This document shows, piece after piece, positions 1 through 28,277 of a stretch of DNA of 28,277 nt. Position numbers and translations under genes: made by a program. Each line of letters starts with the position of its first letter. Position 1 is the first letter of the stretch. The stretch is from a virus (lineage: Duplodnaviria; Heunggongvirae; Uroviricota; Caudoviricetes), in IMG/VR virus record IMGVR_UViG_2913167280_000009, positions 1 to 28,277 of that record; one strand, 5' to 3'. Under the pieces are notes generated by a model. The model searched no databases, was not told the origin of the DNA, and was given only the letters and a program-made list of their open reading frames with translations.

Positions 1-993
1 TTAACTCAATAACCAGACCAATATCACGATGATGGCGGTCAGCAATATCCACAGGCTGGGGCGCATGGCCATTTCTTGCATCGTGTTAATGAATGGCGTA
101 AAGGGATTGAGCAACGGTTGAATATCTCGCGGTTCAATCCCATTCACCCGCCGTTGATAAAGCTGGTTGAGGATATCCTCGGCCTGTGCGGAAGTCAGGG
201 CTGAATGCTGAGAAAGGCCATATTTTTTCTCAACATAGCTCGATAATACTGTCAACTCGCTGGCATCCAGTGGCTGTTTTAGCGCCATCTGAAGCGACTC
301 CAGTGTCGGTGTATTTTGCTGACTTAACACCTGGCGTGCCTGCAACCAGGTAACCAGGTGGGTAAACATTTTGGCCGGGATCAACTCTCCATTTTTTACC
401 CCAGAAAGTTCCAGCATAGATTGCCAAATCTGTTTGCTGGGTTCTCCTGTTGCCGCCGCGAGTTTAGTCACCAGTTGCTTAAGCGTATTGTGTTCTGCCG
501 GTAGCAAAGGGCGATCGGTCGCCTGGCGCTGTTGCGGCTGCGGAATAACCATCTTCCCTTCCTGTAACAGCGTCAGGACGGTTTTTAATTGCTCCGGTGA
601 GAGTTGATTCAGCGGCGTCTGACCAAAGTTATGACGAATGTAATCTGTGACCGCCTGACGATTATTCCCCAGTCGTAAGTACTCGCTCAATTGCGCCAAA
701 AGCTGGCGGACAGAATGGCTTTCTTGCGCGGCCAGTAAACGTTGTGCAAGGTTTTGTTCTGCGGCGGGGAAATTGCGTGAAAGTAACGGTGAATCGCCCG
801 GCAGACCGATGTCGTGCTTTATACCAGCCCACAATTCCGCGCTCTGCTGTTGCGTCAGCGAAGTCACTTTGGTTATCAAACTTTCCAGCACTGTACGTTG
901 CAAGCTGGATAAAGGCTGATTGCCTGCGCCAGACGACAGTTTATCCCCCTGACCCGGTGGTTGCCCAGGAGGGGCGGAAATTGGTTGTATCAT
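1..993 (-). CDS. flk: Flk-like C-terminally anchored membrane protein (probable flagellar biosynthesis regulator Flk); likely host flank
   Basis: 330-aa ORF, Gln/Leu-rich, single C-terminal hydrophobic anchor (SLWILLTAIIVILVWLLS); length and architecture fit enterobacterial Flk. Recognition is from memory and unverified. Confidence 0.5.
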   Translation of the reverse strand: MIQPISAPPGQPPGQGDKLSSGAGNQPLSSLQRTVLESLITKVTSLTQQQSAELWAGIKHDIGLPGDSPLLSRNFPAAEQNLAQRLLAAQESHSVRQLLAQLSEYLRLGNNRQAVTDYIRHNFGQTPLNQLSPEQLKTVLTLLQEGKMVIPQPQQRQATDRPLLPAEHNTLKQLVTKLAAATGEPSKQIWQSMLELSGVKNGELIPAKMFTHLVTWLQARQVLSQQNTPTLESLQMALKQPLDASELTVLSSYVEKKYGLSQHSALTSAQAEDILNQLYQRRVNGIEPRDIQPLLNPFTPFINTMQEMAMRPSLWILLTAIIVILVWLLS

Positions 994-1198
994 TACGTAT
1001 CCTTATACCTGAAATCATCGCAAGTATGCCTGGCCGCGAGATTATGGCACACTTGTCCGGTTAACTCTCGTTCTCATACAGGTACCACAAACGTGAAAAT
1101 CCTTGTTGATGAAAAAAATAATGATTTAATTTATTGATATAAAAGGATTTGTATCATCGCGTGTCCACGCAGTGACCACATTTTCGAGAGGTAGAGTA

Positions 1199-1225
1199 AG
1201 CCCGCAACATTGCGGGCTTTGTCTT
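1199..1225. terminator. GC-rich hairpin (AGCCCGC-N6-GCGGGCT) followed by a T-rich tract on the + strand, at the 3' end of the methyltransferase gene
   Basis: Inverted repeat read directly; T-rich tail only on + strand, so its role for the - strand MTase gene is uncertain. Confidence 0.35.
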
Positions 1226-2015: not shown

Positions 2016-2166
2016 TGCTCCTCATGTGTGTGGGGTGCTCGATGGCTCTCGTTATCTGGTTAAGGGTTTTGCAACGCGGACATTTTATTTCAATGTGGTG
2101 AAATGAGGCGCGGGCAAGTAATTTATAGCAATTTTTGCATCGTATATTTTGCATCATCTGCGGCAC
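1960..2166 (-). CDS. com: Com-like zinc-finger protein (homologue of phage Mu translational activator Com); true start probably at 2154 (MQNIRCKNC)
   Basis: Translation IRCKNCYKLL...HIEIKCPRCK matches Mu Com (IRCKNCNKLL...HIEIRCPRCK); two CxxC pairs; 3' end overlaps the MTase start by 56 nt. Confidence 0.7.
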   Translation of the reverse strand: MPQMMQNIRCKNCYKLLARASFHHIEIKCPRCKTLNQITRAIEHPTHMRSNDRGDRNPAQNSPYPGIH

Positions 2167-2255: not shown

Positions 2256-2263
2256 AAAAAGAA

Positions 2264-2289
2264 AACCCGCAGTATTTACGCTGCGGGTT
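2264..2289. terminator. Bidirectional rho-independent terminator (AACCCGCAG-loop-CTGCGGGTT) flanked by A-run and T-run; terminates the hok transcript on the - strand
   Basis: Perfect 9-bp stem, 8-nt loop, T-rich tracts on both strands. Confidence 0.6.
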
Positions 2290-2345
2290 TTCTTGTTTGT
2301 GTCCATGGGATAGGGTGCCACTTCGGCCAGCCTTAGCAACCGATT

Positions 2346-2376: not shown

Positions 2377-2517
2377 TTACTGCTTACACTGTAAGAACGC
2401 CGCAAACTCCGCTCCCCAGAAGCTCATCCGTATTTCACACAGCGAACCGTGCAGCATCCAGATGATAAGGGTTGCCGTCACGCAGAACGTGATGGCCATC
2501 AGCGATTTTTGCGACAT
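2377..2517 (-). CDS. Hok/Gef-family type I toxin (small membrane toxin); not in the supplied ORF track because it is under 60 aa
   Basis: Hand translation of the - strand gives MSQKSLMAITFCVTATLIIWMLHGSLCEIRMSFWGAEFAAFLQCKQ (46 aa): N-terminal TM helix, conserved SLCEIR and E-AAFL-CK motifs of the Hok family; RBS AGGAG 8 nt upstream of ATG. Confidence 0.7.
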   Translation of the reverse strand: MSQKSLMAITFCVTATLIIWMLHGSLCEIRMSFWGAEFAAFLQCKQ

Positions 2518-2709
2518 AGCACTTGCTCCTTTGTTGGAGAGGCGCTAACCTGTCACTTGCGAAGGTTATGTGGTTAGTGCCCCGAGTTGAACATAAAAGT
2601 TTAACCGGGGCCTTTCCACATCTGGCCTTCGGGTATTCCCTCCAGCCATCAGCCGAAAGGCACCCGCGCGTAATCTATCGCTTTTTTGTTACTCCGGCAA
2701 TTCAGCCTG

Positions 2710-16818: not shown

Positions 16819-17278
16819 CGCTTTCGCCCCACGTCACATCCTGGAATACATGTGACCAGTCGCCTTCGGAAGATGGCAGGCGGGGTTTTGGCTCCGGCAG
16901 GTGTTCTGCCCGCGGTGTGCCCTGACTGCTGCGCGTGACGCGAACGCGCTCCCGCAGGGGCAGTGTAAACAGGATGTCGGCGCTGTCATCGTCATTAATA
17001 ACGGCAGAAAATTTGATGTCCTGATTACGCTCAGGGTTGAGCAACAACTGTGGCTGATTCTCCGACAACCACGCCAGCAGCGGCAGCGTCAGGTCGTCAA
17101 GCTCCCCGGCGTAATCCATGACAAACATCACCATCTGATAGCGGTAAGCAAACGAGGGAGTTTCTCCGGTCGTTTCAATGTTGCCGCTCTCCACGAAAAT
17201 GGTGAATTTCTCCGGGTTGGCGTGACACCATCGACATGAACGGGTCATGGCTTCACGCAGGGAATCAGTTTTCAGCAT
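16811..17278 (-). CDS. R: Tail completion protein R
   Basis: 155 aa, same size and position as P2 gpR. Confidence 0.8.
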   Translation of the reverse strand: MLKTDSLREAMTRSCRWCHANPEKFTIFVESGNIETTGETPSFAYRYQMVMFVMDYAGELDDLTLPLLAWLSENQPQLLLNPERNQDIKFSAVINDDDSADILFTLPLRERVRVTRSSQGTPRAEHLPEPKPRLPSSEGDWSHVFQDVTWGESDG

Positions 17279-17600
17279 GGCTGTTGTCCTCGTTGTTCAG
17301 TCGTTGCAGTCTGCGCTGCTCCAGTAATTCAATGGCCCGTTTATCCGCGTTACAGGTTTCCAGTGCATCCAGAAGGCGGTCTCCCCATATACCGAGGTTT
17401 CCCCAGGTGGGAGTATCAGGGAAGGGGGGAGGCGTTACCGGTATGGTCAGCGTCTGCGGTATAAGCCGGGCCGACTGCGCTGGCAGTGGCGTGTTCTGCG
17501 TGCCTGCGCAACCTGTCAGTAAAACGAGCGTCAGGCAAAGCGTGGGCGCATGCGTCTTTTGCAATATCGTTGCGTAGTTGTTCACGTCTGGCCTCTCCAT
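17265..17600 (-). CDS. lysC: LysC (Rz1-like outer-membrane lipoprotein spanin), embedded in the +1 frame of lysB
   Basis: Lipobox LLTGC after a hydrophobic stretch, Pro-rich mature region; overlaps lysB 3' end and R start. Start codon uncertain. Confidence 0.6.
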   Translation of the reverse strand: MERPDVNNYATILQKTHAPTLCLTLVLLTGCAGTQNTPLPAQSARLIPQTLTIPVTPPPFPDTPTWGNLGIWGDRLLDALETCNADKRAIELLEQRRLQRLNNEDNSHAEN

Positions 17601-17823
17601 CCTGATTGCGTTGCTGATTTTCCGCGCGGAGTTGTGCCAGCACCTGCTGCAGATCCTGTACCCCGGCGCTGATGATATTCAGGGTGTCGACGGTACTTTT
17701 CAGGGTGCTGGCCTGCGCTTCGTTTCTGGCGTTCTCCCGGCCCAGCGACCACGACAGACGCATGGATGTTCCCCATGCGGCAATCAGAAGGAAAGCGACA
17801 CCCAGCGTGGGCCAGAGCTTCAT
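17416..17823 (-). CDS. lysB: LysB (Rz-like inner-membrane spanin)
   Basis: Start at MKLWPTLGVAFLLIAAWG (N-terminal TM helix) then charged coiled-coil-like region; track ORF extends further upstream to 17967. Confidence 0.7.
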   Translation of the reverse strand: MKLWPTLGVAFLLIAAWGTSMRLSWSLGRENARNEAQASTLKSTVDTLNIISAGVQDLQQVLAQLRAENQQRNQDGEARREQLRNDIAKDACAHALPDARFTDRLRRHAEHATASAVGPAYTADADHTGNASPLP

Positions 17824-18212
17824 GCCGGATAGGCTCCGTGTGGTAACTGAAAATGCGGTCCGTCTTTCAGGGTCTTCCAGTCGCCGCCCCATTCCACCGG
17901 AATATTCAGTTCCCGGCTGGCCTGTCTGAATGCTGCTGCGATTTTTTCGTACAGCGGCCATTCCCATGACACCTGGCTGCCGATATAAGCTACAACATCC
18001 ACGGCATGCCCCGTAAGGTGGCGGCTGTTCATGGTCTGGCTCTTACCCGTGGCCACAAGTTGCTTCTGGCGGTAACGGCTGCGCAATCCTTCGGTGATAC
18101 CAAAATCCACTTCCGAGATTTCCAGTGCCCGTCGGGTCACTTTCACCAGATCAGGATTTACACCCTGCAAATTCTTTTCGCTCCGGCTGCTGAATTTAAA
18201 TGTGTTGCTCAT
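17820..18212 (-). CDS. Endolysin, peptidase M15 family (L-alanyl-D-glutamate or D-Ala-D-Ala peptidase type)
   Basis: 130 aa; zinc-binding motif SRHLTGHAVDV (H-x6-D) and downstream His; sits at the lysis-cassette position of P2 K but is not lysozyme-like. Confidence 0.8.
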   Translation of the reverse strand: MSNTFKFSSRSEKNLQGVNPDLVKVTRRALEISEVDFGITEGLRSRYRQKQLVATGKSQTMNSRHLTGHAVDVVAYIGSQVSWEWPLYEKIAAAFRQASRELNIPVEWGGDWKTLKDGPHFQLPHGAYPA

Positions 18213-18532
18213 TCGTCCTTCTCCTTCACCCTGCGATTAAAGGCCGCAATAACCTTGTCGCGTGCTTTCTCTGCACCCATAAAACCGATTGATGCGCCGA
18301 TAAACGTCACGGCATCTTCAGGAAACCCGAAGAAGCGCAACGACCCGGCCACGGCCATGGCAAGAACGCCGCACGCCAGCGATCCCGTTACGGTCTGAAC
18401 CAGTGTTCGTCCGTCATAAAGACTCATCAGCGCGGAAATGCTGACCGCCGCGCCTACTGCATACACCGTTGGCAGGTGGTCAAAGAGCCACGCAATAACC
18501 TGCTCTGTGATCCCTGTTTGAATGGTGCTCAC
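18209..18532 (-). CDS. Holin (putative)
   Basis: About 108 aa from GTG at 18532 (RBS GGGGGAG); two to three hydrophobic helices and a charged C-terminus (KARDKVIAAFNRRVKEKDE); position between X and endolysin. Confidence 0.65.
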   Translation of the reverse strand: MSTIQTGITEQVIAWLFDHLPTVYAVGAAVSISALMSLYDGRTLVQTVTGSLACGVLAMAVAGSLRFFGFPEDAVTFIGASIGFMGAEKARDKVIAAFNRRVKEKDE

Positions 18533-18534
18533 CG

Positions 18535-18741
18535 CTACTCCCCCCACAACTGAATCATTTCTCGTTTCTTCTTCTCCGGCTCCGGCATCTCCACTTCCTG
18601 CCCGGCGTTCAGAAATACCTGCTGACAGAGTCCTGGGTTGGCATCCAGCACCTTTTCGGTGACGCCCTGCGTCGTGCCGTAGTACCGGAAACAGAGCGAA
18701 TCCACGGTGTCGCCTGCCAGTGCTTTCACTTTCATCAGCAC
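18535..18741 (-). CDS. X: Tail protein X (LysM-like)
   Basis: 68 aa; MLMKVKALAGDTVDSLCFRYYGTTQGVTEKVLDANPGL matches P2 gpX (ALQGDTLDAICVRYYGRTEGVVETVLAANPGL). Confidence 0.85.
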   Translation of the reverse strand: MLMKVKALAGDTVDSLCFRYYGTTQGVTEKVLDANPGLCQQVFLNAGQEVEMPEPEKKKREMIQLWGE

Positions 18742-19229
18742 AGCTCCGCAAACATTCGTGGCCTTCCCAGAATGTCAGAGATGGCCCAGCTCACATCGCG
18801 CCACAGGTCCGCAGCCTGTGCGTCCAGTGCATCTGCCCGGCGCTCGCCCTTATCCGTTGTGTCCGCATCGCGGTAACGCTCCAGAATCAGGGCACGGGTG
18901 GCGGTATAAACCGCATTGCGCCAGTGCCAGAGATTGACGCTTTCTCCGTTAATTAATGGCGCCGGGACATCGGCCAGTGTTTCATGTCCGGCTGCCTGCT
19001 GTTCCTGCTGCCACGCTTCCAGCTCACGGGTAACGTGGGCCACCGCCCCGGTGGCGGTATGCAGCAGGCGGGAGGTGGTCACGCGGCCCGGCAGTCGTAC
19101 CGCCAGACGCAGCTCACGCAGCACAATATCCGGCCAGAATGCCCCCGCAGAAATACGGGTATCGCCATCATCGGTATCAGTGATGTCATCCTCTGCGGGG
19201 CGGGTTTCGGTTCTGGCAACCATACTCAT
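18735..19229 (-). CDS. L: Head completion/stabilisation protein L
   Basis: Position between terminase small subunit and X; start at MSMVAR with AGGAG RBS 8 nt upstream. Confidence 0.8.
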   Translation of the reverse strand: MSMVARTETRPAEDDITDTDDGDTRISAGAFWPDIVLRELRLAVRLPGRVTTSRLLHTATGAVAHVTRELEAWQQEQQAAGHETLADVPAPLINGESVNLWHWRNAVYTATRALILERYRDADTTDKGERRADALDAQAADLWRDVSWAISDILGRPRMFAELC

Positions 19230-19330
19230 GGGGTTCACTCCTGAAAAAATCGGGCGGTGGGTGCGTGGTGTAAACGGCCACGGAGTCAAACCGGAACACC
19301 GCGCACGCCGCCCGCTGACGGGGTCAGTCG

Positions 19331-20128
19331 TTAACCGCGCTTCGCCTTCTGCGTCGCGGTGGTTTTTCGTGTTGCAGGCTTCCGCGTTGTCTTTTTACTT
19401 TTGCTGCTTTTGTCCTGCGCCTGCTGTGCGCTGGCAACTGGTGCGGCTGCGGAATCGGCTTTTTTCAGGGCGCGGGAAAGGGTTGCAATCTCGCGTTTCA
19501 CACCTGCGTTCGGGTTCAGGTGCATCGCTTCGCGCAGCAGCTTCAGTGATAAGGCCATGTTGTCTGCATCGGTCAGACCACGACGGGCAAAGGCGCACGC
19601 CTTGCATAATTTGGCGCGCACTTCGTCCGGCATGTCCTGGTCGGTGACAATCTCCCGGAGGGTGTCCAGTGGTTCGATAAAGGCGGACAAATCCGCGTCG
19701 GCATCCGTCCCGGCCTGCGTCAGTACCGGATTGCAGATTTCTTCGGTCAGAACCGTGGCAGCAGTACGGCCAAAGTTATCCGGCATGATGAGGTTGTGAC
19801 GGACCACATACGCACCAATACGCAGCGCCAGCGGAAGATCGCCGCAGTCAATCGCCCACACCATCAGCGTGGCAATCACTTCATCCTGCTGCCCGCCGTC
19901 AGCCTCCAGCGTTCCCTCAATCCAGCCGGAAAAATCCGGCAACAACTCTTTTTTGATGGCGGCTTTCGCGCTTCTGGCCTGTACGCCCTTAAGCCGGGCC
20001 TGTGCCAGACGCAGACGATACAGCACCTCTTCATGCGCGGTACGCGCAGCGTGGTCCACGCCTTCATTCGCCCGGCCCGCGCGCTGTGCCATCACGTTCT
20101 GCCAGTGTTGCTGTGCAGGAGTAATCAT
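19331..20128 (-). CDS. M: Terminase small (endonuclease) subunit M
   Basis: 265 aa with basic Lys/Thr-rich C-terminal tail; downstream of capsid gene as in P2. Confidence 0.85.
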   Translation of the reverse strand: MITPAQQHWQNVMAQRAGRANEGVDHAARTAHEEVLYRLRLAQARLKGVQARSAKAAIKKELLPDFSGWIEGTLEADGGQQDEVIATLMVWAIDCGDLPLALRIGAYVVRHNLIMPDNFGRTAATVLTEEICNPVLTQAGTDADADLSAFIEPLDTLREIVTDQDMPDEVRAKLCKACAFARRGLTDADNMALSLKLLREAMHLNPNAGVKREIATLSRALKKADSAAAPVASAQQAQDKSSKSKKTTRKPATRKTTATQKAKRG

Positions 20129-20173
20129 TTTTTCTCTCCGTTACAGGCGGGCATGATGCCCGCCGTGAGTTGA

Positions 20174-21226
20174 TTATCTGTCGGCGAACTTCAGGCCAGT
20201 GACCATCGCGCACTTGCCATAGTCTTCAACGACATAAGCGTCATTGATGGACTGGTAGGTGGCGATGCGGTTGTATTCCGGTTCGTCTTTCATCAGACGA
20301 CGCATTGAACCTTTCTGCCAGTAAATCGACAGGTTGTTGAACGAGGTGATCAGCATCGTTGAATCCGGGAAGAACGGCGCAAGGAACACGCCCAGCCCGC
20401 CAATGGTGCGCGATGACAGAATGAGCTGCCCGGCGAGTAATTCCGCATTGGGATTCTGGCCGCTGATGCTGTTCAGCACGGGCAGACGCAGCGAGTTAAA
20501 CAGGTTGCGCCCCATAATCACCACGAGGTCGTCAGCTTCCTTGTGCCATTCATCCAGCAGGGATGAGCGCGCGTCCTGTACCAGTGCATCAGCGTTCGCA
20601 TACTTACCCGCGTGCGCCACGGTGTTGTCCATGTTACGGGAGGTCAGCGTCACGTCATTCATAACGCGTTCGCTGGCGTCGGTTCTGATGTGCTCCAGCC
20701 ACCCCACGTTAACGTCCTGAAGCAACTTGTTGGTGCTGAAGTTGGACTCATCCGCGTGAGACGTGCCGTTGAAACCGATCATGATGCGGTCAAGCGCCAC
20801 CTGTCGGGCAATCTGTGCGCTGATGCGGGACTGAAAATCGCTGTGTGCCGACCAGGCATCAAGCTGCGGATACGAAATAAACGTGTCGTAGTTCACCTGT
20901 TCGCACTGGTATTTGCGGTTTTTCAGATCAACCACGTTATTCGGGTTACGGCGTTTTGTTCCGTCATAACTGGTATTCGTGCGCGCAATCGGTCCTGTGG
21001 TATCCAGGAGGATTTTTTCGCCCTTCTGGTCGGTCACGCCGATCACGTTAATTCTTTTTGTAAATTCGGTGCTTTCCTTTGAGGCGTTTTCAAAACGCTG
21101 CTGTACCGAGGGTTCCACGGTAAATCGCGATACCAGTGCGGAAACCGGGATATTGTTAAGCGACGCCTGCTGCGCCATATAGCAACCCAGCTTGTTGCGG
21201 GTAATATCTGACATCACCAGATTCAT
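20174..21226 (-). CDS. N: Major capsid protein N
   Basis: 350 aa, size and position as P2 gpN (357 aa). Confidence 0.95.
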   Translation of the reverse strand: MNLVMSDITRNKLGCYMAQQASLNNIPVSALVSRFTVEPSVQQRFENASKESTEFTKRINVIGVTDQKGEKILLDTTGPIARTNTSYDGTKRRNPNNVVDLKNRKYQCEQVNYDTFISYPQLDAWSAHSDFQSRISAQIARQVALDRIMIGFNGTSHADESNFSTNKLLQDVNVGWLEHIRTDASERVMNDVTLTSRNMDNTVAHAGKYANADALVQDARSSLLDEWHKEADDLVVIMGRNLFNSLRLPVLNSISGQNPNAELLAGQLILSSRTIGGLGVFLAPFFPDSTMLITSFNNLSIYWQKGSMRRLMKDEPEYNRIATYQSINDAYVVEDYGKCAMVTGLKFADR

Positions 21227-21249
21227 AAAAAATTTGCTCCTTTGTCTTA

Positions 21250-22086
21250 TCAGAAGTCAGCCAGCTGGTCGGAGGCTGCGCCTGTTGCGGTGAACCGGTT
21301 CTGCGGATCGCCGTCCTGCGTGCGCAGTTTTTCCTTCAGTTCTGCCAGCTCTGTGGTCAGTAAAGTGATTTTCTGGCTGTCCTGCTGATGGCGGGTTTCC
21401 AGCACATTAAAACGGTCGATAATGTCGGCCTGTGACGTTGCGACACCTTCCACCGCTTCCTGAATACGGGAGAAACTGGCGTCATCCGCTTTGCGGCCAC
21501 GGCCAATAATCCCCATAACGCGGTTAAACCACTGGGTGCCTTCCTCCTGACGTTGTTCGGTGAGTTCGATAAGTTCTGACTCCATAGCGGCGGTAAACAT
21601 CGCCACGTCTCCCTGCTGACAGTTGAATGTCATCAGTTGCATACGTTGTTGTGCCGCAAAGGCCAGACGTTCCGTGCCCAGGCTGGCGGGGGTGTCGGTC
21701 ATTGCCAGCCCGCGCAGGTAAGGGCCTCCCGTGATGGTTGACTGTGGTTCCAGCTCAATACTGGAGTAAATTTTTTTACCATCGTTAAGCAGGGACATCA
21801 TGCGAGCGGTCGGCTCAATTTCGGCATACAGTGCCGTGCGACCTGCCAGCGGGCCATCGGTTATGTCTTCGGTGCTCAACCCCACAACATCGCCCATAGC
21901 GGAAAACTCGCTACCGGGGAGTGGTGACAGGATGTGCTCAATATTCACACGTGCACCATAAACGGACGGGTTATAACTGGTGGCGGCAGCTTTCAGCATG
22001 TCGCCGTTGATTTCGCGCCCGTCTGCCGTTACACCGGAGACAGCCACGCGAAACTTTTTGCGGGTTGTTGATTTTTCATTAGCCAT
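21250..22086 (-). CDS. O: Capsid scaffolding protein O
   Basis: Position divergent from P and upstream of N; start chosen at MANEKSTTRKKF (track ORF extends to 22119). Confidence 0.85.
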   Translation of the reverse strand: MANEKSTTRKKFRVAVSGVTADGREINGDMLKAAATSYNPSVYGARVNIEHILSPLPGSEFSAMGDVVGLSTEDITDGPLAGRTALYAEIEPTARMMSLLNDGKKIYSSIELEPQSTITGGPYLRGLAMTDTPASLGTERLAFAAQQRMQLMTFNCQQGDVAMFTAAMESELIELTEQRQEEGTQWFNRVMGIIGRGRKADDASFSRIQEAVEGVATSQADIIDRFNVLETRHQQDSQKITLLTTELAELKEKLRTQDGDPQNRFTATGAASDQLADF

Positions 22087-22240
22087 AGTTTTTGCCCCTC
22101 TGACTGGTCCTTCAGTCATGATGGCAAAGCGTAACAGGCTGATACAAAGGGCTTTTGTTGTAAGAAAACAGTCAGAACAGGGGGTTAAGGAGAACGGTTT
22201 CGCGCGCGGGTAATCTTCCTGTAATTACTCAGGGGGAGCA

Positions 22241-23992
22241 ATGATTCAGGACGCTTTTGTGCGCCAGCGTGCGCGACAACTTTACTGGCAGGGTTATCCG
22301 CCCGCAGAAATATCACGTCTGATGGGAATAAACCCGAACACGATTTATGCGTGGAAAAAACGCGACCAGTGGGATGAAACGCCACCCGTGCAGCGTGTCA
22401 CGCAGTCCATCGATGCGCGCCTCATCCAGCTCACTGAAAAACAGAATAAAACAGGTGGTGACTTCAAGGAAATAGACCTGCTGACCCGGCAGCTTAAAAA
22501 ACTGCATGATGGCCAGCCGGATGCGACGGCCACAGGAAAGAAAGGCCGGGCGAAAAAACTCAAAAATCATTTCACGCCGGAACAGATTGCCGCACTGCGG
22601 GAAAAAATCATCAGCAGGCTGGAGTGGCATCAGCGGGGCTGGTTTGACTCCCTGACCCTTTGCAGGGAAGCCGGGATACGTAACAGGATGATCCTGAAAT
22701 CCCGACAGATTGGGGCGACCTGGTATTTTGCACAGGAAGCTCTGCTGATGGCGCTGCGTGACGATGTGGCGCAACCTTACCAGCGTAACCAGATTTTTTT
22801 GTCTGCGTCGCGTCGTCAGGCGTTCCAGTTTAAAAGCATTATTCAGAAGGCCGCGGCTGAAGTTGATGTGGAGCTGAAAGGGGGCGATAAAATCATCCTC
22901 TCCAACGGCGCAGAGCTGCATTTTCTCGGCACTTCTGCTGCGTCGGCACAGTCCTATACGGGCAATTTTTATTTTGATGAATTTTTCTGGGTCAGTCGCT
23001 TTGCTGAACTGCGCAAGGTAGCTGGCGCTATGGCAACCCTCAGCGGACTGCGGCGCACCTACTTCTCCACGCCATCCACCGAAACGCACGAGGCATACGC
23101 CTACTGGAACGGCGACCGCTGGAACGAGAAAAAGGCCTCGCATAAACGCCAGCGTTTTTCTGTGGACTGGAAAACGCTGCATAACGGGCTTATCTGCCCT
23201 GACCGGACGTGGCGGCAAATTGTCACGCTGGAAGATGTGGTTAATCACGGCTGGAAACACACCGATATTGACGAAATCCGTGATGAAAACACCGAAGACG
23301 AGTTCCTCAATCTCTATATGTGTGAGTTTGTTCGCGAAGGGGAATCGGCATTTAACCTGAATATCCTGATTGGCTGCGGTGTTGACGGATACGACGACTG
23401 GAAAGACTGGAAACCTTTTGCTCCCCGCCCGATGGGGAATCGTCCGGTATGGATTGGGTATGACGCAAACGGCAGCAGTGGCAACGGCGACAGCGGCGCT
23501 GTGTCCGTGGTGGTTCCTCCGGCTGTTCCTGGTGGCCGTTTTCGAACGGTGGAGACGCGACGCGTTCAGGGGCTGGAGTTTGAAGAACAGGCCAGAGTCA
23601 TTGAAGAGTTCACGTGTCGCTACAACGTGGAACACATCGGCATTGATGTGACGGGCGGGAACGGGGAGGCTGTTTATCAGATAGTGAAGCGGTTTTTCCC
23701 TGCTGCTATTCCGTACACCTTCACGCTGTCATCCAAACGGTCGCTGGTACTGAAAATGCTGCAAATAATGCGTGCCGGACGGTGGGAATATGATCGTGCC
23801 GAACGCGAGCTGGTCGCGGCCTTTAACGCCGTGCGTAAGGTGAAAACACCGGGCGGCTTTATCACTTACGAAACGGACCGCGCGAGGGGGATCAGCCACG
23901 GCGACCTTGCGTGGGCAACCATGCTTGCTGTCATTAACGAACCGATTGGCGGCGAAGGAGAAAACGAGCGTTTCACGGTTATGGAGTTCTGA
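22241..23992 (+). CDS. P: Terminase large (ATPase) subunit P
   Basis: 583 aa; size, divergent position from O and adjacency to portal as P2 gpP. Confidence 0.95.
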   Translation: MIQDAFVRQRARQLYWQGYPPAEISRLMGINPNTIYAWKKRDQWDETPPVQRVTQSIDARLIQLTEKQNKTGGDFKEIDLLTRQLKKLHDGQPDATATGKKGRAKKLKNHFTPEQIAALREKIISRLEWHQRGWFDSLTLCREAGIRNRMILKSRQIGATWYFAQEALLMALRDDVAQPYQRNQIFLSASRRQAFQFKSIIQKAAAEVDVELKGGDKIILSNGAELHFLGTSAASAQSYTGNFYFDEFFWVSRFAELRKVAGAMATLSGLRRTYFSTPSTETHEAYAYWNGDRWNEKKASHKRQRFSVDWKTLHNGLICPDRTWRQIVTLEDVVNHGWKHTDIDEIRDENTEDEFLNLYMCEFVREGESAFNLNILIGCGVDGYDDWKDWKPFAPRPMGNRPVWIGYDANGSSGNGDSGAVSVVVPPAVPGGRFRTVETRRVQGLEFEEQARVIEEFTCRYNVEHIGIDVTGGNGEAVYQIVKRFFPAAIPYTFTLSSKRSLVLKMLQIMRAGRWEYDRAERELVAAFNAVRKVKTPGGFITYETDRARGISHGDLAWATMLAVINEPIGGEGENERFTVMEF

Positions 23993-25038
23993 TGAGCAGA
24001 AAAAATAAAAAAGTGCGCATGAGTTCACGCATTGATCTCTCTGATGCGCTCAGGAAAGAATCGTCGCTCAGCGCGTTCACATTTGACGGCCCTTACCGCC
24101 TGACCGGGCATGACCTGCTGGATAATATGTACTGTGCTGATAACGGGCGGTGGTATGAAACCCCGGTGGACTGGTACGGTCTGGCAAGAGCTGCCCGGCA
24201 AACGTCCTGGCATCAGTCTGCGCTTTACTTTAAGCGCAATGTATTGCTCGGTTGCTATATTCCGCACCCGCTGCTTTCCCGGCAGGATTTCTCGGCGCTG
24301 GCGCTGGACTGGTTTGTGTTCGGTAACGCATTCCTTGAGCTTCGAAGCAATATGCTCGGCGAACCGCTTAAATTACGGCACGCCCTGGCGAAATACATGC
24401 GACGCGGAAGCGATCTTGAATCATGGTGGTATGTGCAGGATGGTAAGGACGCGTTTCAGTTTCGCCCTGGCAAAGTGTGCCACCTGATGAATCCTGACAT
24501 TAACCAGGAAATCTACGGCATGCCGGAATATCTCGGCGCATTACTCTCGGCCAGCCTGTCTCATTCGGCGGACATGTTCAGAAAACTGTATTACGACAAC
24601 GGATCCCACGCCGGGTGCATCATCTACATCGGTGCAGCGCAGGTAAACCGCGAAAGCATGGACTCCCTGAAAGAAACGCTACAGGGTGCACGTGGTGGTG
24701 GTGCGTTTAAAAACGTGCTCATTCATGCGCCCAACGGGGGCAAAGAGGGGGTGCAAATTTTGCCGTTCCAGCAGATCACCGCAAAGGATGAGTTCATGAA
24801 TGTTAAGGCGGCATCCCGTGATGATGTGCTGGCTGCGCACCGCGTTCCGCCGCAATTGATGGGGGCGATGCCGGGTGAAAAAAGTGCGTTTGGTGATGTG
24901 GAGAAGGCCGCGCGGGTTTACGCAATTAACGAGCTGATGCCTGTCATGGAGGCCATGAAGCACATCAATGACTGGCTTGGCGAAGAGGTGATCCGCTTTA
25001 ATCCTTACGCACTGCTGGACACCCAGCCCACATCCTGA
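23992..25038 (+). CDS. Q: Portal (capsid vertex) protein Q
   Basis: 348 aa; size and position immediately after P as P2 gpQ. Confidence 0.95.
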   Translation: MSRKNKKVRMSSRIDLSDALRKESSLSAFTFDGPYRLTGHDLLDNMYCADNGRWYETPVDWYGLARAARQTSWHQSALYFKRNVLLGCYIPHPLLSRQDFSALALDWFVFGNAFLELRSNMLGEPLKLRHALAKYMRRGSDLESWWYVQDGKDAFQFRPGKVCHLMNPDINQEIYGMPEYLGALLSASLSHSADMFRKLYYDNGSHAGCIIYIGAAQVNRESMDSLKETLQGARGGGAFKNVLIHAPNGGKEGVQILPFQQITAKDEFMNVKAASRDDVLAAHRVPPQLMGAMPGEKSAFGDVEKAARVYAINELMPVMEAMKHINDWLGEEVIRFNPYALLDTQPTS

Positions 25039-25061
25039 CGCGCTTCGCTTGTCTGCTGCTT

Positions 25062-25088
25062 CGCCGGGGCATAAAAAATTTATGCCCC
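25062..25088. terminator. Hairpin (GGGGCATAAA...TTTATGCCCC) between convergent Q (+) and the downstream - strand ORF
   Basis: Perfect 10-bp arms around an AT-rich centre; located between two convergent stop codons. Confidence 0.5.
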
Positions 25089-25104
25089 GACTCTTCAGCT
25101 CTGC

Positions 25105-25809
25105 TTAACGAAGTGCTGATGGCGCTCGCTTTTTCAGGTGATTAGCGATGTGCTTTTTCATGTGCATAACAACATCGCCCCAGGCTTCTTCGCTGGGTTT
25201 ATTGATAAATACGCGAACAGAAATATCGTCTTCCACCCGGACTCTCAGAGACACCCGTTCCGCATCTACTGAATATAATTCAAGTGCAATAACCACGCTT
25301 ACCGGGTAGCTGCTGTCAGATGACTTAACCCAGGTTCGCACGGCCATGCGGAAAATATTGTCTGGTGCAGATGCGATATTGTGGACTGAAAGAGGCCTAA
25401 AATCCGCCGCTGTCTTACATGGCAAGCCTGTCTCCACGTAGCGGTGCAGGTCGCCATCATCGTCTTTCCAGTACATGGATGGAAGCCCCAGCCATTCTTC
25501 ATAGAAATCAATCAGCCTTGCTGCTTCATCCCGCAAAATTTGAGCTGCCTCAGCGCGTTTTTCTTCAGCTTCACGATTGATCTGGCATAAATCATTAAAG
25601 TGGCTCATGACATTATCCTCTTTTGAGTTGATGCCTGCCGCTATTCTGACTTTGCCCGGGTTCTCCTGCAAGCTGGTTATTCCTTCAGATAATTTCACAA
25701 CATCTCCAACCTTGTAGCCATCATCGCCGGGCGGGTGCTTACGCAACCCCGCAACTCTGACGACATATTCTCGCTGCCTCAGTGCGATTTTGACGGCCTT
25801 ACCTTTCAC
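25105..25809 (-). CDS. Hypothetical protein (accessory cargo); alternative start at 25608 (MSHF, RBS GAGGA) would give 167 aa
   Basis: Open frame of 234 aa from GTG at 25809; no family recognised; lower GC than the structural genes. Confidence 0.5.
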   Translation of the reverse strand: MKGKAVKIALRQREYVVRVAGLRKHPPGDDGYKVGDVVKLSEGITSLQENPGKVRIAAGINSKEDNVMSHFNDLCQINREAEEKRAEAAQILRDEAARLIDFYEEWLGLPSMYWKDDDGDLHRYVETGLPCKTAADFRPLSVHNIASAPDNIFRMAVRTWVKSSDSSYPVSVVIALELYSVDAERVSLRVRVEDDISVRVFINKPSEEAWGDVVMHMKKHIANHLKKRAPSALR

Positions 25810-25839
25810 CCCATCAAATCAGAATCCCTCACGTATTTT

Positions 25840-26089
25840 TCACGCTCAGCGTGAGAAATATGGCCATTCTGTTGTGTCGCTGCGACATCGTTCAGGGAAT
25901 GCTATTTACCCCCTGAAACGCGGGCTGTTCCCCCGTCACCTGCGCGCAGAAAAAACGCGTTTTTTTGTGCACGCACGGATCCTTGACGGATCCAGCTGCC
26001 ACGCGGGCCGGAAGGGCAAAAAGTCGTTCAAAAAAATTGTGCAAATTTGTGCACTATTGTGCAGCAGGGCGATGCGCGATTATCGCCCT
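25840..26089. promoter_or_regulatory. Operator-rich intergenic region: palindromes TCACGCT-C-AGCGTGA (25840-25854), TGTCGC-T-GCGACA (25875-25887), AAAAAACGCGTTTTTT (25950-25965), paired GGATCC sites (25977-25993), three TTGTGCA repeats at exact 10-bp period (26037-26063), inverted repeat AGGGCGAT-N8-ATCGCCCT (26066-26089)
   Basis: All read directly from the sequence; lies between the stop of the 179-aa ORF and the start of the 234-aa ORF. Confidence 0.5.
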
Positions 26090-26103
26090 GGTTTGAGAGG
26101 AAA

Positions 26104-26643
26104 TTAGGTGTTCTTTTTACCTTCTGTCAGTGGGCATAACCATCCACTATTTACATCACTTAGCTGATGCGTTCTTTCCTCGTGCTTCTCCTGCCACAAT
26201 GCTTTTCCGCCAGCCTTTATGATGGCTCTTTCAACATCCCGCTCGTATCGCAAGGGCTGAAATACGTTATTAATGAAATATTCGCTTATGTCCGAAAGCA
26301 ATACTGCAAAATTATTGGTTTGTTGCGCCGTTCGGCTATGCAGCAAAGCGGCATACTTTAATGCGTCCTGTGCTTTCTGGAATTTAAGTGCATGGTCAGT
26401 TGCGATTTTTTCCAGTTCAGCGATGCGCTTTTTTGCTGTTTCCAGTTCATCCAGCAGTGCCAGCATGTCTTCCGGTCCAGCCAGAAGTCTGAAGGTGTTG
26501 ATCGCGTCAATATCCACACCGCAATCTTTAAGTTCCTGTTCGCTTAACAAATCATCATCAACTGGCAATATTAACAGGCGTTCCATTGCCGGAATTGCCC
26601 GTTCTGCTGCCATTTGTAGTGCCTGATAGTCAATCTTGCTCAC
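26104..26643 (-). CDS. Hypothetical protein (acidic, helical); co-transcribed with upstream ORF
   Basis: 179 aa; start overlaps the stop of the preceding ORF (ATGA coupling); no family recognised with confidence. Confidence 0.5.
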   Translation of the reverse strand: MSKIDYQALQMAAERAIPAMERLLILPVDDDLLSEQELKDCGVDIDAINTFRLLAGPEDMLALLDELETAKKRIAELEKIATDHALKFQKAQDALKYAALLHSRTAQQTNNFAVLLSDISEYFINNVFQPLRYERDVERAIIKAGGKALWQEKHEERTHQLSDVNSGWLCPLTEGKKNT

Positions 26644-27164
26644 TGGTTGTCTCCTTTGTGTTGCGCCAGCTCTTCCTGCGCCTGCATCATGCGATTGACC
26701 TGAACGCGTGTGCGTCGAACGGCAAAATTAAATTGAAACATGAGCCGGAACATTTCTGAGGCTTCCGTGTGAGCATCGCGGAGAGGTGACAGGCGGTACA
26801 GTTCTGCCTCCGTAGCTTGTTGAATCAATGACAGATCAAATTGAAGTGCGGGTCTGGTACATTTTGCACGTCTGGCAGCAAGCTCCGGCATCAGTTTCTT
26901 AACGAAGGTGTTTTGCACCGCTTTGTTGAGTTGTGTCTGCATCCAAATCGCAAATTTCAGCGAACGCATAAGTTTGATAGCCTCGGGCAGCGGCAGATAG
27001 ATCATGCTGGTAGATTTGGGTGGTTGGTGAATCATCTTCACGGATACGCGATTTCGCAGCGTTCGGAAAATCGTGTTCCCAACAACAGCTTCTACGGATA
27101 CAGGACAGGGAGCCAGACCAGCCCGCAGTGCTTCTTTCATTAGCATGTATTCGTATTTTTTCAT
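26640..27164 (-). CDS. Hypothetical protein; third gene of the parM-parR operon
   Basis: 174 aa; RBS GAGGAA 6-7 nt upstream of ATG; only 60 bp downstream of parR with no convincing terminator between. Confidence 0.5.
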   Translation of the reverse strand: MKKYEYMLMKEALRAGLAPCPVSVEAVVGNTIFRTLRNRVSVKMIHQPPKSTSMIYLPLPEAIKLMRSLKFAIWMQTQLNKAVQNTFVKKLMPELAARRAKCTRPALQFDLSLIQQATEAELYRLSPLRDAHTEASEMFRLMFQFNFAVRRTRVQVNRMMQAQEELAQHKGDNQ

Positions 27165-27224
27165 CGTGTTTTCCTCGTGCGGGGCGACAGTGCACCCCGA
27201 TAAAATTAAAAGCCGTCAAATTCG

Positions 27225-27536
27225 TCATTCAGGAAATAATGCCCGGATATTCCCTGCTATCTGACTGGTTATCTGTGCGGTTGATACTGGCTGTGACGCG
27301 GGGGATTCTGTCCTGGTTTGTGTCACTGATAACGCTTCATCATCAGCCCATGCAGCCAGTCGGTAAGCCTCTGCCGGATTCATCTTCAGAAGTGCCAGCC
27401 CGGCCAGAAAAGCCACGCGCTGGCCGCTTTTGCGGGCTTCTGGTGTAAGGCTGTCCAGCCAGGCGCATGCTTCGCCTTCGTTCTTGACGGCGGCTGGCTT
27501 CAGATAGAAACTTATTCTTCTGGTTAATGTCGCCAT
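27225..27536 (-). CDS. parR: ParR/StbB-like partition adaptor (centromere-binding)
   Basis: 103 aa; RISFYLKPAAV...AWLDSLTPEARKSGQRVAFLAGLAL aligns with R1 ParR (TIAFKLNPDVN...DTLDSIPQGERSRLNRAALTAGLAL); directly downstream of the parM homologue. Confidence 0.75.
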   Translation of the reverse strand: MATLTRRISFYLKPAAVKNEGEACAWLDSLTPEARKSGQRVAFLAGLALLKMNPAEAYRLAAWADDEALSVTQTRTESPASQPVSTAQITSQIAGNIRALFPE

Positions 27537-27542
27537 GGAGGG

Positions 27543-28277
27543 TTACTCCTTATCCATAGCGTACAGACCGTTAACCAGAGCAAACTGTGGCACCCCGTCT
27601 GTGATGAAATTCGCATTGACTCCATAGACTTCACGGACTGCGGGTGCCACAATCTCCGCTCCTCCACCGACAACCAGCACCCGCCCGTAACCCGAAAAGC
27701 CCGCGAGTGCGCGGATCACGCGTTGTTTCAGTGTCTCCTCCTTTTCACGAATAACCGCCATCAGGCTGTTGTAATGCGCGTCATTGTGAATGTGCTGGCG
27801 TAGCCAGGCTTCATCGTGACGGTGCTCAATAATGGTATTGGCGATGTGGTGACTGGTACGCATACCGTTAGTGGCCATCACCGACAGCACGGCATCAGCC
27901 ATCAGGGAAACGCCTACGTGTGGATCGCAAAACACCTGGCTGATGCCTGCCAGTTGCCCCTGAACCTTTGCCACATCCAGCGTGGTTCCGCCCAAATCCA
28001 CAATCAGCAGGGATTCAAACGGACTCATGTCAGCCAGTGCCTTAAAGCCAGCCGGAATGGATTCAGGCATAACCCGCACGTTACGGATAGTGAATGCCTC
28101 ACCGTTCTGGCACTCCACCGGGCGCATGACGTTCGCTTTTTTGCGGTTGATGTTGGCCATGTCCGGCTGTGCGTTTGTGTCGAAATATTCGCTCAGTGGC
28201 AGGGTGACAACCACATCCACTTCCTGTGGTGTGATGCCTGATTTGACCAGTGCGTGGTGAATGGCAATGACATTCAC
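27543..28277 (-). CDS. parM: ParM/StbA actin-like partition ATPase, N-terminally truncated by the window edge
   Basis: Colinear matches to R1 ParM: IAIHHAL, ITPQEVD, RKKAN, VMPESIPAGF, SLLIVDLGGTTLDVA, GVSL, FSGYGRVLVVGGGAE, LVNGLY. Confidence 0.85.
   Translation of the reverse strand: MNVIAIHHALVKSGITPQEVDVVVTLPLSEYFDTNAQPDMANINRKKANVMRPVECQNGEAFTIRNVRVMPESIPAGFKALADMSPFESLLIVDLGGTTLDVAKVQGQLAGISQVFCDPHVGVSLMADAVLSVMATNGMRTSHHIANTIIEHRHDEAWLRQHIHNDAHYNSLMAVIREKEETLKQRVIRALAGFSGYGRVLVVGGGAEIVAPAVREVYGVNANFITDGVPQFALVNGLYAMDKE

What the first reader, a model, noticed from the sequence alone, without database searches (positions are those of the whole stretch)
27225..28277. ParM/ParR partition system inside a P2-like element, together with a Hok toxin at the other end
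ParMRC and hok/sok are the two classic stability loci of plasmid R1. Finding close homologues of ParM and ParR and a Hok-family toxin (2377-2517) on one P2-like element suggests either a phage-plasmid lifestyle or capture of plasmid stabilisation modules by a prophage. The parC centromere and parM N-terminus lie beyond the right window edge.
Basis: partly seen in the sequence, partly recalled or inferred. Interest (0 to 1): 0.7.

Follow-up and report, generated by a model that had tools for sequence, protein, structure and literature searches.

The report
Partition genes in an integrated P2-like prophage
The window holds intact plasmid-type ParM/ParR segregation genes and a Hok toxin inside a P88-like (P2-family) prophage integrated in the chromosome, an arrangement already annotated in about a quarter of finished E. 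coli genomes and already discussed in print, though its function has never been tested.

Summary
Window 27543-28277(-) encodes the last 244 of 319 residues of an actin-like ParM, 27225-27536(-) encodes a 103-aa ParR/StbB adaptor, and 2377-2517(-) encodes a Hok peptide with a sok-like leader.

The element is a P88-like (Xuanwuvirus, P2-family) prophage of Escherichia sp. E2593. It is integrated into the 5' end of pdxB, next to flk, with a 20-bp att repeat and a tyrosine integrase.

The parM-parR pair always follows the gpA replication gene in this phage genus. It occurs in 1,291 of 5,426 complete E. coli genomes, at 1,436 chromosomal places against 2 on plasmids. It is under strong purifying selection (parM dN/dS 0.06-0.09).

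There is no R1-style parC iteron array. The only repeat is a pair of conserved palindromes 73 bp apart just upstream of parM, which I treat as a candidate minimal centromere.

A stable phage-plasmid lifestyle is not supported for this copy. Capture of plasmid stability modules is supported, but the capture is ancient. The most likely role is moving excised or infecting circular phage DNA, as srpMRC does in SXT/R391 ICEs and AlpAC does in prophage CGP3.

Pfeifer et al. 2021 already flagged P88 for exactly this reason. The feature is known, and interest is low to moderate.

The parts
27543..28277 (-). parM, 3' part (codons 76-319 plus stop) of an actin-like segregation ATPase. The first 75 codons lie beyond the window edge.
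   Evidence: Pfam StbA_N and ParM C-terminal domain. Identical to the C-terminus of the 319-aa ParM of L016. The P88 orthologue hits R1 ParM structures at E 9e-93. The PESIPAG, DLGGTTLD and GGGAE motifs lie inside the window part. dN/dS is 0.06-0.09.
27225..27536 (-). parR (stbB-type), a 103-aa ribbon-helix-helix adaptor that starts 6 nt after the parM stop codon.
   Evidence: Pfam Plasmid_stab_B E 1.6e-24. phrog_2515 over its full length. In a 30-sequence alignment, residues 1-67 are largely conserved (35 of 67 columns invariant), residues 68-93 are hypervariable, and the C-terminal tail NI(R/Q)ALFPE is nearly invariant (N, I, F, P invariant). The N-domain is 34% identical to R1-type ParR.
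25105..27164 (-). Variable accessory region downstream of parR, on the same strand: orf174 (26640-27164), an Ead/Ea22-like gene (26104-26643) and a phrog_5091 ORF (25105-25809, real start probably internal).
   Evidence: Pfam and PHROGs. No PADLOC hit. On the coding strand there is no terminator-like site between parM and 26104, and one at 26054-26039. The gene content differs between relatives.
2377..2517 (-). hok-family toxin gene (46 aa).
   Evidence: Pfam HOK_GEF 27.4 bits, above the cut-off of 22. Annotated as Hok/Gef at the same position in relatives.
2504..2665 (-). hok mRNA leader / sok-antisense region.
   Evidence: Rfam RF01794 (sok), model positions 1-157 of 157, 43.3 bits (below the gathering score of 59), E 1.9e-8. 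No hit at gathering threshold.
2256..2290 (-). Terminator-like hairpin (CCCGCAG-loop-CTGCGGG followed by a T run) downstream of hok.
   Evidence: Read directly from the sequence.
1096..1115 (+). att core AAAATCCTTGTTGATGAAAA, marking the flk-side prophage boundary.
   Evidence: There is a single copy in the window. An identical copy sits at the pdxB 5' end beyond the integrase in L016. The junctions match the attP of the circular form L004.
1..993 (-). flk, a host chromosomal core gene flanking the prophage.
   Evidence: Matches 5,425 of 5,426 E. coli genomes and is annotated flk. This exact protein is named Flk of Escherichia sp. E2593.

Best explanation
The window shows the right-hand part of a P88-like (genus Xuanwuvirus, P2 family) temperate prophage of Escherichia sp. 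E2593. The prophage is site-specifically integrated into the 5' end of pdxB.

parM and parR are a functional type II (actin-type) DNA-segregation pair and a fixed core feature of this phage genus. They lie directly downstream of the gpA rolling-circle replication endonuclease, with no detectable promoter or terminator in between. They are therefore most likely transcribed with the early/replication operon, which is silent in the repressed prophage and switched on after infection or induction.

Proposed mechanism (inferred, not shown): ParR dimers bind two conserved palindromes (CGGGATT-N4-AATCCCG, 73 bp apart, the nearer one 36 nt upstream of parM). The ParR C-terminal tail recruits ParM. ParM filaments then push or position the extrachromosomal circular phage genomes. 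As a result, copies are distributed and retained in dividing cells before the cell lyses or the phage (re)integrates.

Hok/sok at the other end of the prophage adds killing of cells that lose the element.

The module is not evidence for a stable plasmid lifestyle.
For: Identity and integration:
- Gene order and about 92-98% DNA identity to P88 and relatives.
- flk and pdxB flanks, a 20-bp att repeat, and integrase, C and Cox genes.
- Chromosomal at 1,436 places against 2 on plasmids.

Functional integrity:
- ParM has all actin-fold nucleotide-binding motifs.
- parM dN/dS is 0.06-0.09 at dS up to 0.27, and parR dN/dS is 0.07-0.42.
- ParR has a conserved RHH domain and C-terminal tail with a hypervariable linker. 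The tail keeps the Asn-plus-hydrophobic pattern shared with R1-type, IncK/Z and D6 ParR.

Candidate centromere:
- The palindrome pair is found only upstream of parM: 4 strand-matches against 0.38 expected in P88.
- It sits at the same two positions in all 16 P88-type loci that retain this region and is absent from the D6 and plasmid loci.

Coupling to replication:
- The gpA-parM gap is 76 bp in P88 (32 bp by L016's own gene call), with no sigma-70 match and no sense-strand terminator.

A substrate exists:
- The O157 remnant Sp13 keeps int, gpA, parM and parR but has lost its head and lysis genes. Sp13 is reported to excise spontaneously, form circles, amplify about 30-fold with mitomycin C and induce its early genes (PMC2669165).
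- A complete 34.5-kb circular copy is deposited as a plasmid.

Precedents:
- srpMRC of SXT/R391 ICEs stabilises the excised form, and its centromere is only four 13-bp repeats bound in pairs (PMC4489591).
- AlpAC of prophage CGP3 (PMC4446434).
Against: - No experiment addresses ParMR in any P88-like phage.
- The leader lacks the iteron array typical of type II centromeres. It shows no 10.5-bp A-tract periodicity (437 of 2,000 shuffles reach its value, against 0 of 2,000 for R1-type parC) and no homology to R1 parC.
- The two palindromes also score as terminator-like hairpins on the antisense strand, so they may be RNA or terminator elements and not ParR sites.
- The ParR DNA-reading strand and the palindromes are both invariant, so no covariation test was possible.
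- Co-transcription with gpA is inferred from a negative consensus scan only.
- P2-type lytic growth is short, so it is unclear why segregation would matter during it.
Confidence: 0.55

Rival explanations
1. Replication or positioning helper, not a partition device. As with AlpC/AlpA of prophage CGP3, ParR tethers excised phage circles to ParM filaments, which move them to a favourable site (membrane or pole). This raises replication or packaging efficiency during lytic growth, and distribution to daughter cells is irrelevant.
For: The genes sit immediately after gpA and are probably co-expressed with it. CGP3 AlpAC mutants show about a 2-fold lower circle copy number (PMC4446434). A two-site tether would be enough for positioning, even without a full iteron scaffold.
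Against: ParM here is a bona fide R1-family protein (46.7% identity) whose known behaviour is bipolar pushing of paired centromeres (plus established knowledge of R1 ParMRC). E. coli already has MreB, unlike Corynebacterium. Retention in Sp13, which makes no virions of its own, argues for a role beyond lytic yield.
Confidence: 0.2
2. Facultative phage-plasmid. P88-like phages can lysogenise either by integration or as stably inherited low-copy plasmids, with ParMR plus Hok as the plasmid maintenance kit. 2021.
For: A partition pair plus a type I toxin-antitoxin is the classic low-copy plasmid kit. One complete circular 34.5-kb copy is deposited as a plasmid. P2-like phage KS14 is a proven plasmid prophage (PMC3091744). 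The conjecture is published for P88.
Against: This copy and nearly all others are integrated: 1,436 chromosomal places against 2 on plasmids. All long contigs carrying this exact ParR are chromosomal. Only 7 of 72,556 plasmid records hold this ParR. One of them is a linear IS-ridden fragment and four are 227 kb to 1.4 Mb in size. There is no theta-type initiator or copy-control locus, whereas KS14 uses RepB plus ParA. gpA is under lysogenic repression in the P2 paradigm (established knowledge). I could not check whether the strain with the circular copy also carries an integrated one.
Confidence: 0.12
3. Host- or competitor-directed function. The prophage expresses ParMR in lysogens to interfere with incoming plasmids or related phages (incompatibility or exclusion), or as an uncharacterised defence, in line with its position beside the P2 tin/old-type defence hotspot.
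For: The module lies next to the variable accessory region that holds defence genes in P2-type phages (position seen; hotspot concept from established knowledge). ParR occurs in at least two allele classes and mosaics, which could reflect diversifying pressure.
Against: There is no PADLOC match for ParM, ParR or the neighbours. The variable part of ParR is the linker, not the DNA-reading strand or the ParM-binding tail. The upstream palindromes are the same for both allele classes, so there is no sign of specificity divergence. No promoter was detected.
Confidence: 0.06
4. Inert passenger: a relic of an old recombination with a plasmid that no longer does anything.
For: The canonical parC array is missing and the element is integrated.
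Against: dN/dS is 0.06-0.09 for parM across dS up to 0.27. Motifs are intact. ParR shows a domain-specific conservation pattern. The pair is intact in 39 of 40 evenly sampled E. coli hits by annotation and is retained even in the degraded Sp13-type remnant.
Confidence: 0.03

Closest known systems
Escherichia phage P88 and other Xuanwuvirus (Peduoviridae) phages and prophages, including Citrobacter phage phiSM and O157 Sakai Sp13 / CP-933T
   Same: Same gene order: int-C-cox-...-gpA-parM-parR-variable region-portal ... ogr-hok-(com-MTase)-att. ParM is about 95-100% identical and ParR 93% identical to P88. The same two palindromes lie upstream of parM, and hok is at the same place.
   Different: The host is a cryptic-clade Escherichia (sp. 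E2593), not E. coli. The integration site is pdxB here, versus btuC-side, nfrA or leuZ-yecA in other members. The accessory genes after parR also differ.
ParMRC of plasmid R1 / IncFII (type II partition)
   Same: ParM has the same fold and motifs at 46.7% identity. ParR is an RHH adaptor encoded directly downstream, with a homologous N-domain and a similar C-terminal tail.
   Different: There are no 2 x 5 11-bp iterons, no embedded sigma-70 promoter and no helical A-tract phasing in the leader. The leader is at most 76 bp of intergenic DNA plus the 3' end of gpA, against roughly 150 bp or more in plasmids. The replicon is an integrated prophage, not a low-copy plasmid.
srpMRC (plus hipAB) of SXT/R391 integrative conjugative elements
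   Same: An actin-type partition pair carried by an element that normally sits in the chromosome. It acts on the transient excised circle, which replicates by a rolling-circle HUH enzyme, and it is combined with a toxin-antitoxin. Its small centromere is made of four short repeats bound as two pairs (PMC4489591).
   Different: SrpM/SrpR are only distantly related to R1 ParM/ParR, whereas the phage proteins are clear R1-family members. The element is an ICE, not a phage. Function is demonstrated for srpMRC and not for the phage module.
AlpC/AlpA/alpS of Corynebacterium glutamicum prophage CGP3
   Same: [quoted passage not shown] It is induced early on excision and is needed for full circle copy number (PMC4446434).
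   Different: Unrelated lineage of actin-like proteins, a Gram-positive host and a cryptic prophage. No sequence similarity was tested or expected.
Phage D6 (P1-like plasmid prophage) StbA/StbB and Burkholderia phage KS14 (P2-like plasmid prophage)
   Same: D6 carries the only other R1-type ParM found in the phage collection (48% identity), and its annotation cites 'P88 StbA'. KS14 shows that a P2-like phage can live as a plasmid.
   Different: D6 is a 91-kb true plasmid prophage with a 266-bp iteron-bearing leader. KS14 uses ParA plus RepB and has no tyrosine integrase. The window element has an integrase, att sites and no plasmid initiator.

Membership tests
Type II (ParMRC) partition locus | Actin-fold ATPase ParM with intact nucleotide-binding motifs | tested here: met
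   Pfam E 5.8e-67 and 4.9e-40. E 9e-93 to R1 ParM structures. The DDGSTNIK, PESIPAG, DLGGTTLD and GGGAE motifs are present.
Type II (ParMRC) partition locus | Small RHH centromere-binding adaptor ParR encoded directly downstream of parM, with a C-terminal ParM-binding tail | tested here: met
   Pfam Plasmid_stab_B E 1.6e-24. The intergenic gap is 6 nt. The N-domain and C-tail are conserved with a variable linker. The tail pattern is shared with R1-type ParR. Binding itself is inferred.
Type II (ParMRC) partition locus | parC: an array of direct-repeat iterons upstream of parM that embeds the promoter | tested here: not met
   The element's own leader (L016 8880-9034) has only two palindromic units. 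It shows no 10.5-bp periodicity (437/2000 shuffles reach its value, against 0/2000 for R1-type parC), no similarity to R1 parC and no sigma-70 match. Whether the palindrome pair acts as a minimal centromere is untested.
Type II (ParMRC) partition locus | Carried by, and stabilising, a low-copy extrachromosomal replicon | tested here: not met
   This copy is chromosomally integrated. Across genomes the module is at 1,436 chromosomal places against 2 plasmid places. Stabilising activity cannot be tested with these tools.
Phage-plasmid | Complete phage morphogenesis and lysis gene set | tested here: met
   P2-type head, tail, lysis and packaging genes fill the window and its relatives.
Phage-plasmid | Maintained extrachromosomally in lysogens, with no need for chromosomal integration | tested here: not met
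   Host genes lie on both sides (flk and pdxB), with a 20-bp att repeat and an integrase. The contig is 205 kb.
Phage-plasmid | Plasmid-type replication initiator with copy control | tested here: not met
   The early region in L016 contains only the P2-type Phage_GPA endonuclease and small DUF/HTH proteins.
[quoted passage not shown] | Hok/Gef-family membrane peptide | tested here: met
   Pfam PF01848 at 27.4 bits, above the cut-off of 22.
[quoted passage not shown] | Structured hok mRNA leader with antisense sok | tested here: inconclusive
   Rfam RF01794 full-length match at 43.3 bits, E 1.9e-8, but below the gathering score of 59. No promoter or mok analysis was done.
P88-like (Xuanwuvirus) prophage | Synteny and high nucleotide identity with P88 across early, partition and late regions | tested here: met
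   Portions are 92-98% identical, with the same order of int...gpA-parM-parR...portal...ogr-hok.

The most novel reading that the evidence does not exclude
P88-like phages, and even their degraded remnants such as Sp13, have an ICE-like heritable episomal phase. After spontaneous excision, the gpA-driven rolling-circle replicon is actively partitioned by ParMR, acting on an unusually small two-palindrome centromere at the 3' end of gpA. Hok/sok kills cells that lose the element. The element therefore survives excision in dividing, non-lysing cells and can reintegrate. This would make about a quarter of E. coli strains carriers of a chromosomal element with a working plasmid-type mitotic apparatus, and it would define a minimal type II centromere.
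Probability: 0.25. Interest if true: 0.6.

Novelty: already known. Interest (0 to 1): 0.3.

Why it matters
If the module is active, it explains how an integrating P2-family phage, present in roughly one in four sequenced E. coli, avoids being lost during the window when it is excised but the cell has not lysed. It would be a second case, after the SXT/R391 ICEs, of a chromosomal mobile element that uses an actin-type plasmid partition machine.

It would also provide a very compact natural centromere (two palindromes) for an R1-family ParM/ParR pair. As it stands, the feature is annotated in public records, has PHROG families and has been noted in the phage-plasmid literature. The value here is mainly in clarifying what it is not: it is not evidence for a plasmid lifestyle and it is not an R1-type parC.

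Tried and rejected
1. R1-type parC upstream of parM. I read the element's own leader in L016 and compared it with R1-type (L020), IncK/Z (L010) and D6 (L011) leaders. It has no iteron array, no A-tract phasing and no DNA homology.

2. Covariation between the ParR DNA-reading strand and the palindromes. This was impossible because both are invariant across the 30 ParR variants and 9 aligned leaders. The homologue search reached only the same enterobacterial prophage clade.

3. Defence-system hypothesis. PADLOC found nothing for ParM, ParR or the three downstream ORFs.

4. Rfam at gathering threshold found nothing in the window. Only the sensitive search recovered the sok-like leader.

5. Counting intact attP as a proxy for episomes. 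No finished E. coli genome has attP in one piece, but circular records cut at att would be split, so the test cannot exclude them.

6. The 'plasmid' records. NZ_CP049283.1 is a linear IS1-ridden prophage fragment. NZ_CP148288.1 is a genuine circular full-length copy, but I could not determine whether that strain also has an integrated copy.

7. RNA folding of the leader. Both strands fold better than shuffles (z -3.6 and -2.4), but this only reflects the two palindromes and does not discriminate between models.

8. The scan of one genome per species returned only three loci (E. albertii, Salmonella, and a 'Vagococcus' assembly that is probably contaminated), too few for a phylogenetic analysis.

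Full report
WHAT IS IN THE WINDOW

On the minus strand at the right edge there is an ORF that runs off the window (27543-28277, 244 codons). Six bases later comes a 103-codon ORF (27225-27536). The first matches the two Pfam domains of plasmid segregation protein ParM/StbA (E 4.9e-40 and 5.8e-67). The second matches Plasmid_stab_B, the StbB/ParR family (E 1.6e-24). PHROGs files both under phage 'partition protein' families (phrog_691 and phrog_2515). The 46-codon ORF at 2377-2517(-) passes the Pfam Hok/Gef threshold. It is preceded by a full-length but sub-threshold match to the Rfam sok/hok-leader model (43.3 bits, E 1.9e-8) and followed by a terminator-like hairpin.

WHAT THE ELEMENT IS

The ParMR region and its surroundings match Escherichia phage P88, other Xuanwuvirus (P2-family, Peduoviridae) phages and Citrobacter phage phiSM. 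All share the order int-C-cox-...-gpA(replication endonuclease)-parM-parR-variable genes-portal, with hok near the other end.

The window begins with flk, a host core gene found in 5,425 of 5,426 finished E. coli genomes. The exact Flk protein belongs to Escherichia sp. E2593, an unclassified Escherichia. An exact look-up of the window's ParR retrieved a 205-kb contig of that assembly (L016). L016 matches window 17237-28277 with zero mismatches and continues past the window edge through the rest of parM, gpA, the early genes, cox, C, a tyrosine integrase and then pdxB.

A 20-bp sequence, AAAATCCTTGTTGATGAAAA, is present once in the window (1096-1115, between flk and the prophage) and once at the 5' end of pdxB beyond the integrase. 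Both junctions line up with the attP of a circular copy of the same phage type. The element is therefore a classically integrated prophage in the pdxB 5' end. About 350 finished E. coli genomes carry the same integrase arm ending at that core, and 59 share the flk junction.

HOW COMMON AND HOW PLASMID-LIKE

With the ParMR DNA alone as query, 1,291 of 5,426 finished E. coli genomes have the module, at 1,436 chromosomal places against 2 on plasmids. Members use several integration sites: pdxB, the btuC side, nfrA and leuZ-yecA.

In a plasmid database of 72,556 records only seven encode this ParR. One is a linear IS1-ridden fragment, four are very large records, and one (NZ_CP148288.1, 34.5 kb, circular) is the whole phage genome including its integrase. 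The early region has no plasmid-type initiator, only the P2-type gpA rolling-circle endonuclease. The phage-plasmid reading is thus not supported for this copy and cannot be the usual state of the family.

The idea is not new. Pfeifer et al. [quoted passage not shown] The phage D6 annotation also cites 'P88 StbA'.

IS THE MODULE ALIVE?

Yes, by every sequence test available.
- P88 ParM aligns end to end with R1 ParM crystal-structure sequences (E 9e-93; 46.7% identity). The element's own ParM keeps the phosphate-1, connect, phosphate-2 and adenosine motifs.
- Phage ParMs are at least 96% identical (most >=98%) to one another in protein although their DNA differs by 7-8%. parM dN/dS is 0.06-0.09 at dS up to 0.27, and parR dN/dS is 0.07-0.42.
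- The nearest plasmid ParMs are only 52% identical or less, so the capture is ancient.
- ParR is much further from plasmid ParRs: 34% identity to R1-type ParR over the N-domain, 30% to D6 and 16-17% to IncK/Z.
- Its conservation pattern across 30 variants is what a working adaptor predicts. The ribbon-helix-helix domain (residues 1-67) is largely conserved (35 of 67 columns invariant), the linker (68-93) is hypervariable, and the C-terminal tail NI(R/Q)ALFPE is nearly invariant (N, I, F and P invariant). That tail shares an invariant Asn and hydrophobic positions with the tails of R1-type and other ParRs.
- At least two ParR allele classes and mosaics circulate with essentially the same ParM.

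THE CENTROMERE QUESTION

In P88 the gpA-parM gap is only 76 bp. L016's own gene call, which extends gpA to 9002, leaves 32 bp. The only repeat is a 42-nt unit present twice, 73 bp apart. The first copy lies inside the 3' end of gpA. Each copy contains the palindrome CGGGATT-N4-AATCCCG, and both are perfect in the window's own element.

The motif occurs nowhere else in P88 (4 strand-matches against 0.38 expected) or in the window. It is found at the same two positions in all 16 P88-type loci that retain this region, regardless of ParR allele. It is absent from the D6 and plasmid loci and also from L019, the Shigella prophage fragment.

It is not an R1-type parC. The R1-type leader shows two sets of A/C-rich 11-bp iterons around a TTGACA promoter and a strong 10.5-bp periodicity (0 of 2,000 shuffles reach it). 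The phage leader shows no periodicity (437 of 2,000), no alignment to R1 parC above shuffles, and no sigma-70 consensus.

The palindromes also score as terminator-like hairpins for antisense transcription, so their role is open. A small centromere is not without precedent. The experimentally validated srpC of SXT/R391 ICEs has just four 13-bp repeats bound as two pairs (PMC4489591).

MOST LIKELY MECHANISM

parM follows gpA without a detectable promoter or sense-strand terminator. parR is followed on the same strand by two accessory ORFs before the first terminator-like site. I therefore infer that parMR is expressed with the early/replication operon, that is, when the phage genome is extrachromosomal after infection or induction. 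ParR would bind the palindrome pair, recruit ParM through its tail, and ParM filaments would move the circles apart.

Published data show that the substrate exists. The O157 remnant Sp13 retains int, the epsilon-like derepressor, gpA, parM and parR but has lost its head and lysis genes. It excises spontaneously, is detectable as circles in untreated cells, is amplified about 30-fold by mitomycin C, and induces its early genes (PMC2669165).

The combination of an HUH rolling-circle replicase, an actin-type partition pair and a toxin-antitoxin in a normally integrated element parallels R391 (TraI/oriT, srpMRC, hipAB). The AlpAC system of prophage CGP3 offers the alternative reading that the filaments mainly boost replication. 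These steps are inferred; none has been shown for P88-like phages.

VERDICT

The feature is already annotated, catalogued and discussed, so it is filed as already known.

What remains open, and is modestly interesting, is why an integrating P2-family phage present in about 24% of finished E. coli genomes keeps an R1-family segregation pair under strong selection with only a two-palindrome candidate centromere.

Noticed in passing
window 1224-2166 (-): A Mu Com-type zinc-ribbon gene (1960-2166) overlaps the start of an N6/N4 DNA methyltransferase gene (1224-2015), right next to the att core. The arrangement resembles Mu com-mom but with a methyltransferase, and it is conserved at this prophage end in relatives.
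   Followed up: partly
window 1096-1115 and L016 1697-1716: The att core overlaps the first codons of pdxB. After integration the phage end supplies a new 5' end, and pdxB is called as 385 aa in L016, slightly longer than the 370-aa pdxB annotated beside the same prophage type in E. coli GF66.2 (L003). The original pdxB start is left beside flk.
   Followed up: partly
window 25105-27164 (-): The genes between parR and the portal gene differ from relative to relative: here orf174, Ead/Ea22-like and a phrog_5091 ORF, and elsewhere a ClpX-type zinc-finger protein, a YafO toxin, or DUF4760 plus a hypothetical. This is the position of tin/old in P2. None matched a known defence family.
   Followed up: partly
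ParR alignment A2; L005, L008, L018: ParR exists in at least two allele classes (about 53% identity), plus mosaics that join the N-part of one class to the C-part of the other (e.g. P0027, P0029). All are paired with near-identical ParM and identical upstream palindromes.
   Followed up: partly
L018 (E. coli O157 180-PT54, 2.28-2.31 Mb): The Sp13-type P2-like remnant has an IS3 element inserted right after parR and has lost all head, packaging, lysis and baseplate genes, yet int, gpA, parM and parR stay intact.
   Followed up: partly
L006 (NZ_JBQPOM010000071.1): A 226-kb contig labelled Vagococcus sp. carries a ParM 98% identical to that of E. coli phage P88. This is probably contamination or mislabelling of that assembly.
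   Followed up: no
L016 vs window 17237-28277: The public assembly of the same element differs from the window only by 9 small gaps and no substitutions. Its terminase and portal genes are called shorter there, which suggests homopolymer-type assembly errors in that record.
   Followed up: no
L004 (NZ_CP148288.1): The circular 34.5-kb 'plasmid' copy lacks listed genes for the sheath, tape measure, portal and gpD in the plasmid gene table. These may be pseudogenes or sequencing frameshifts. I could not check whether the strain's chromosome also holds the prophage.
   Followed up: no
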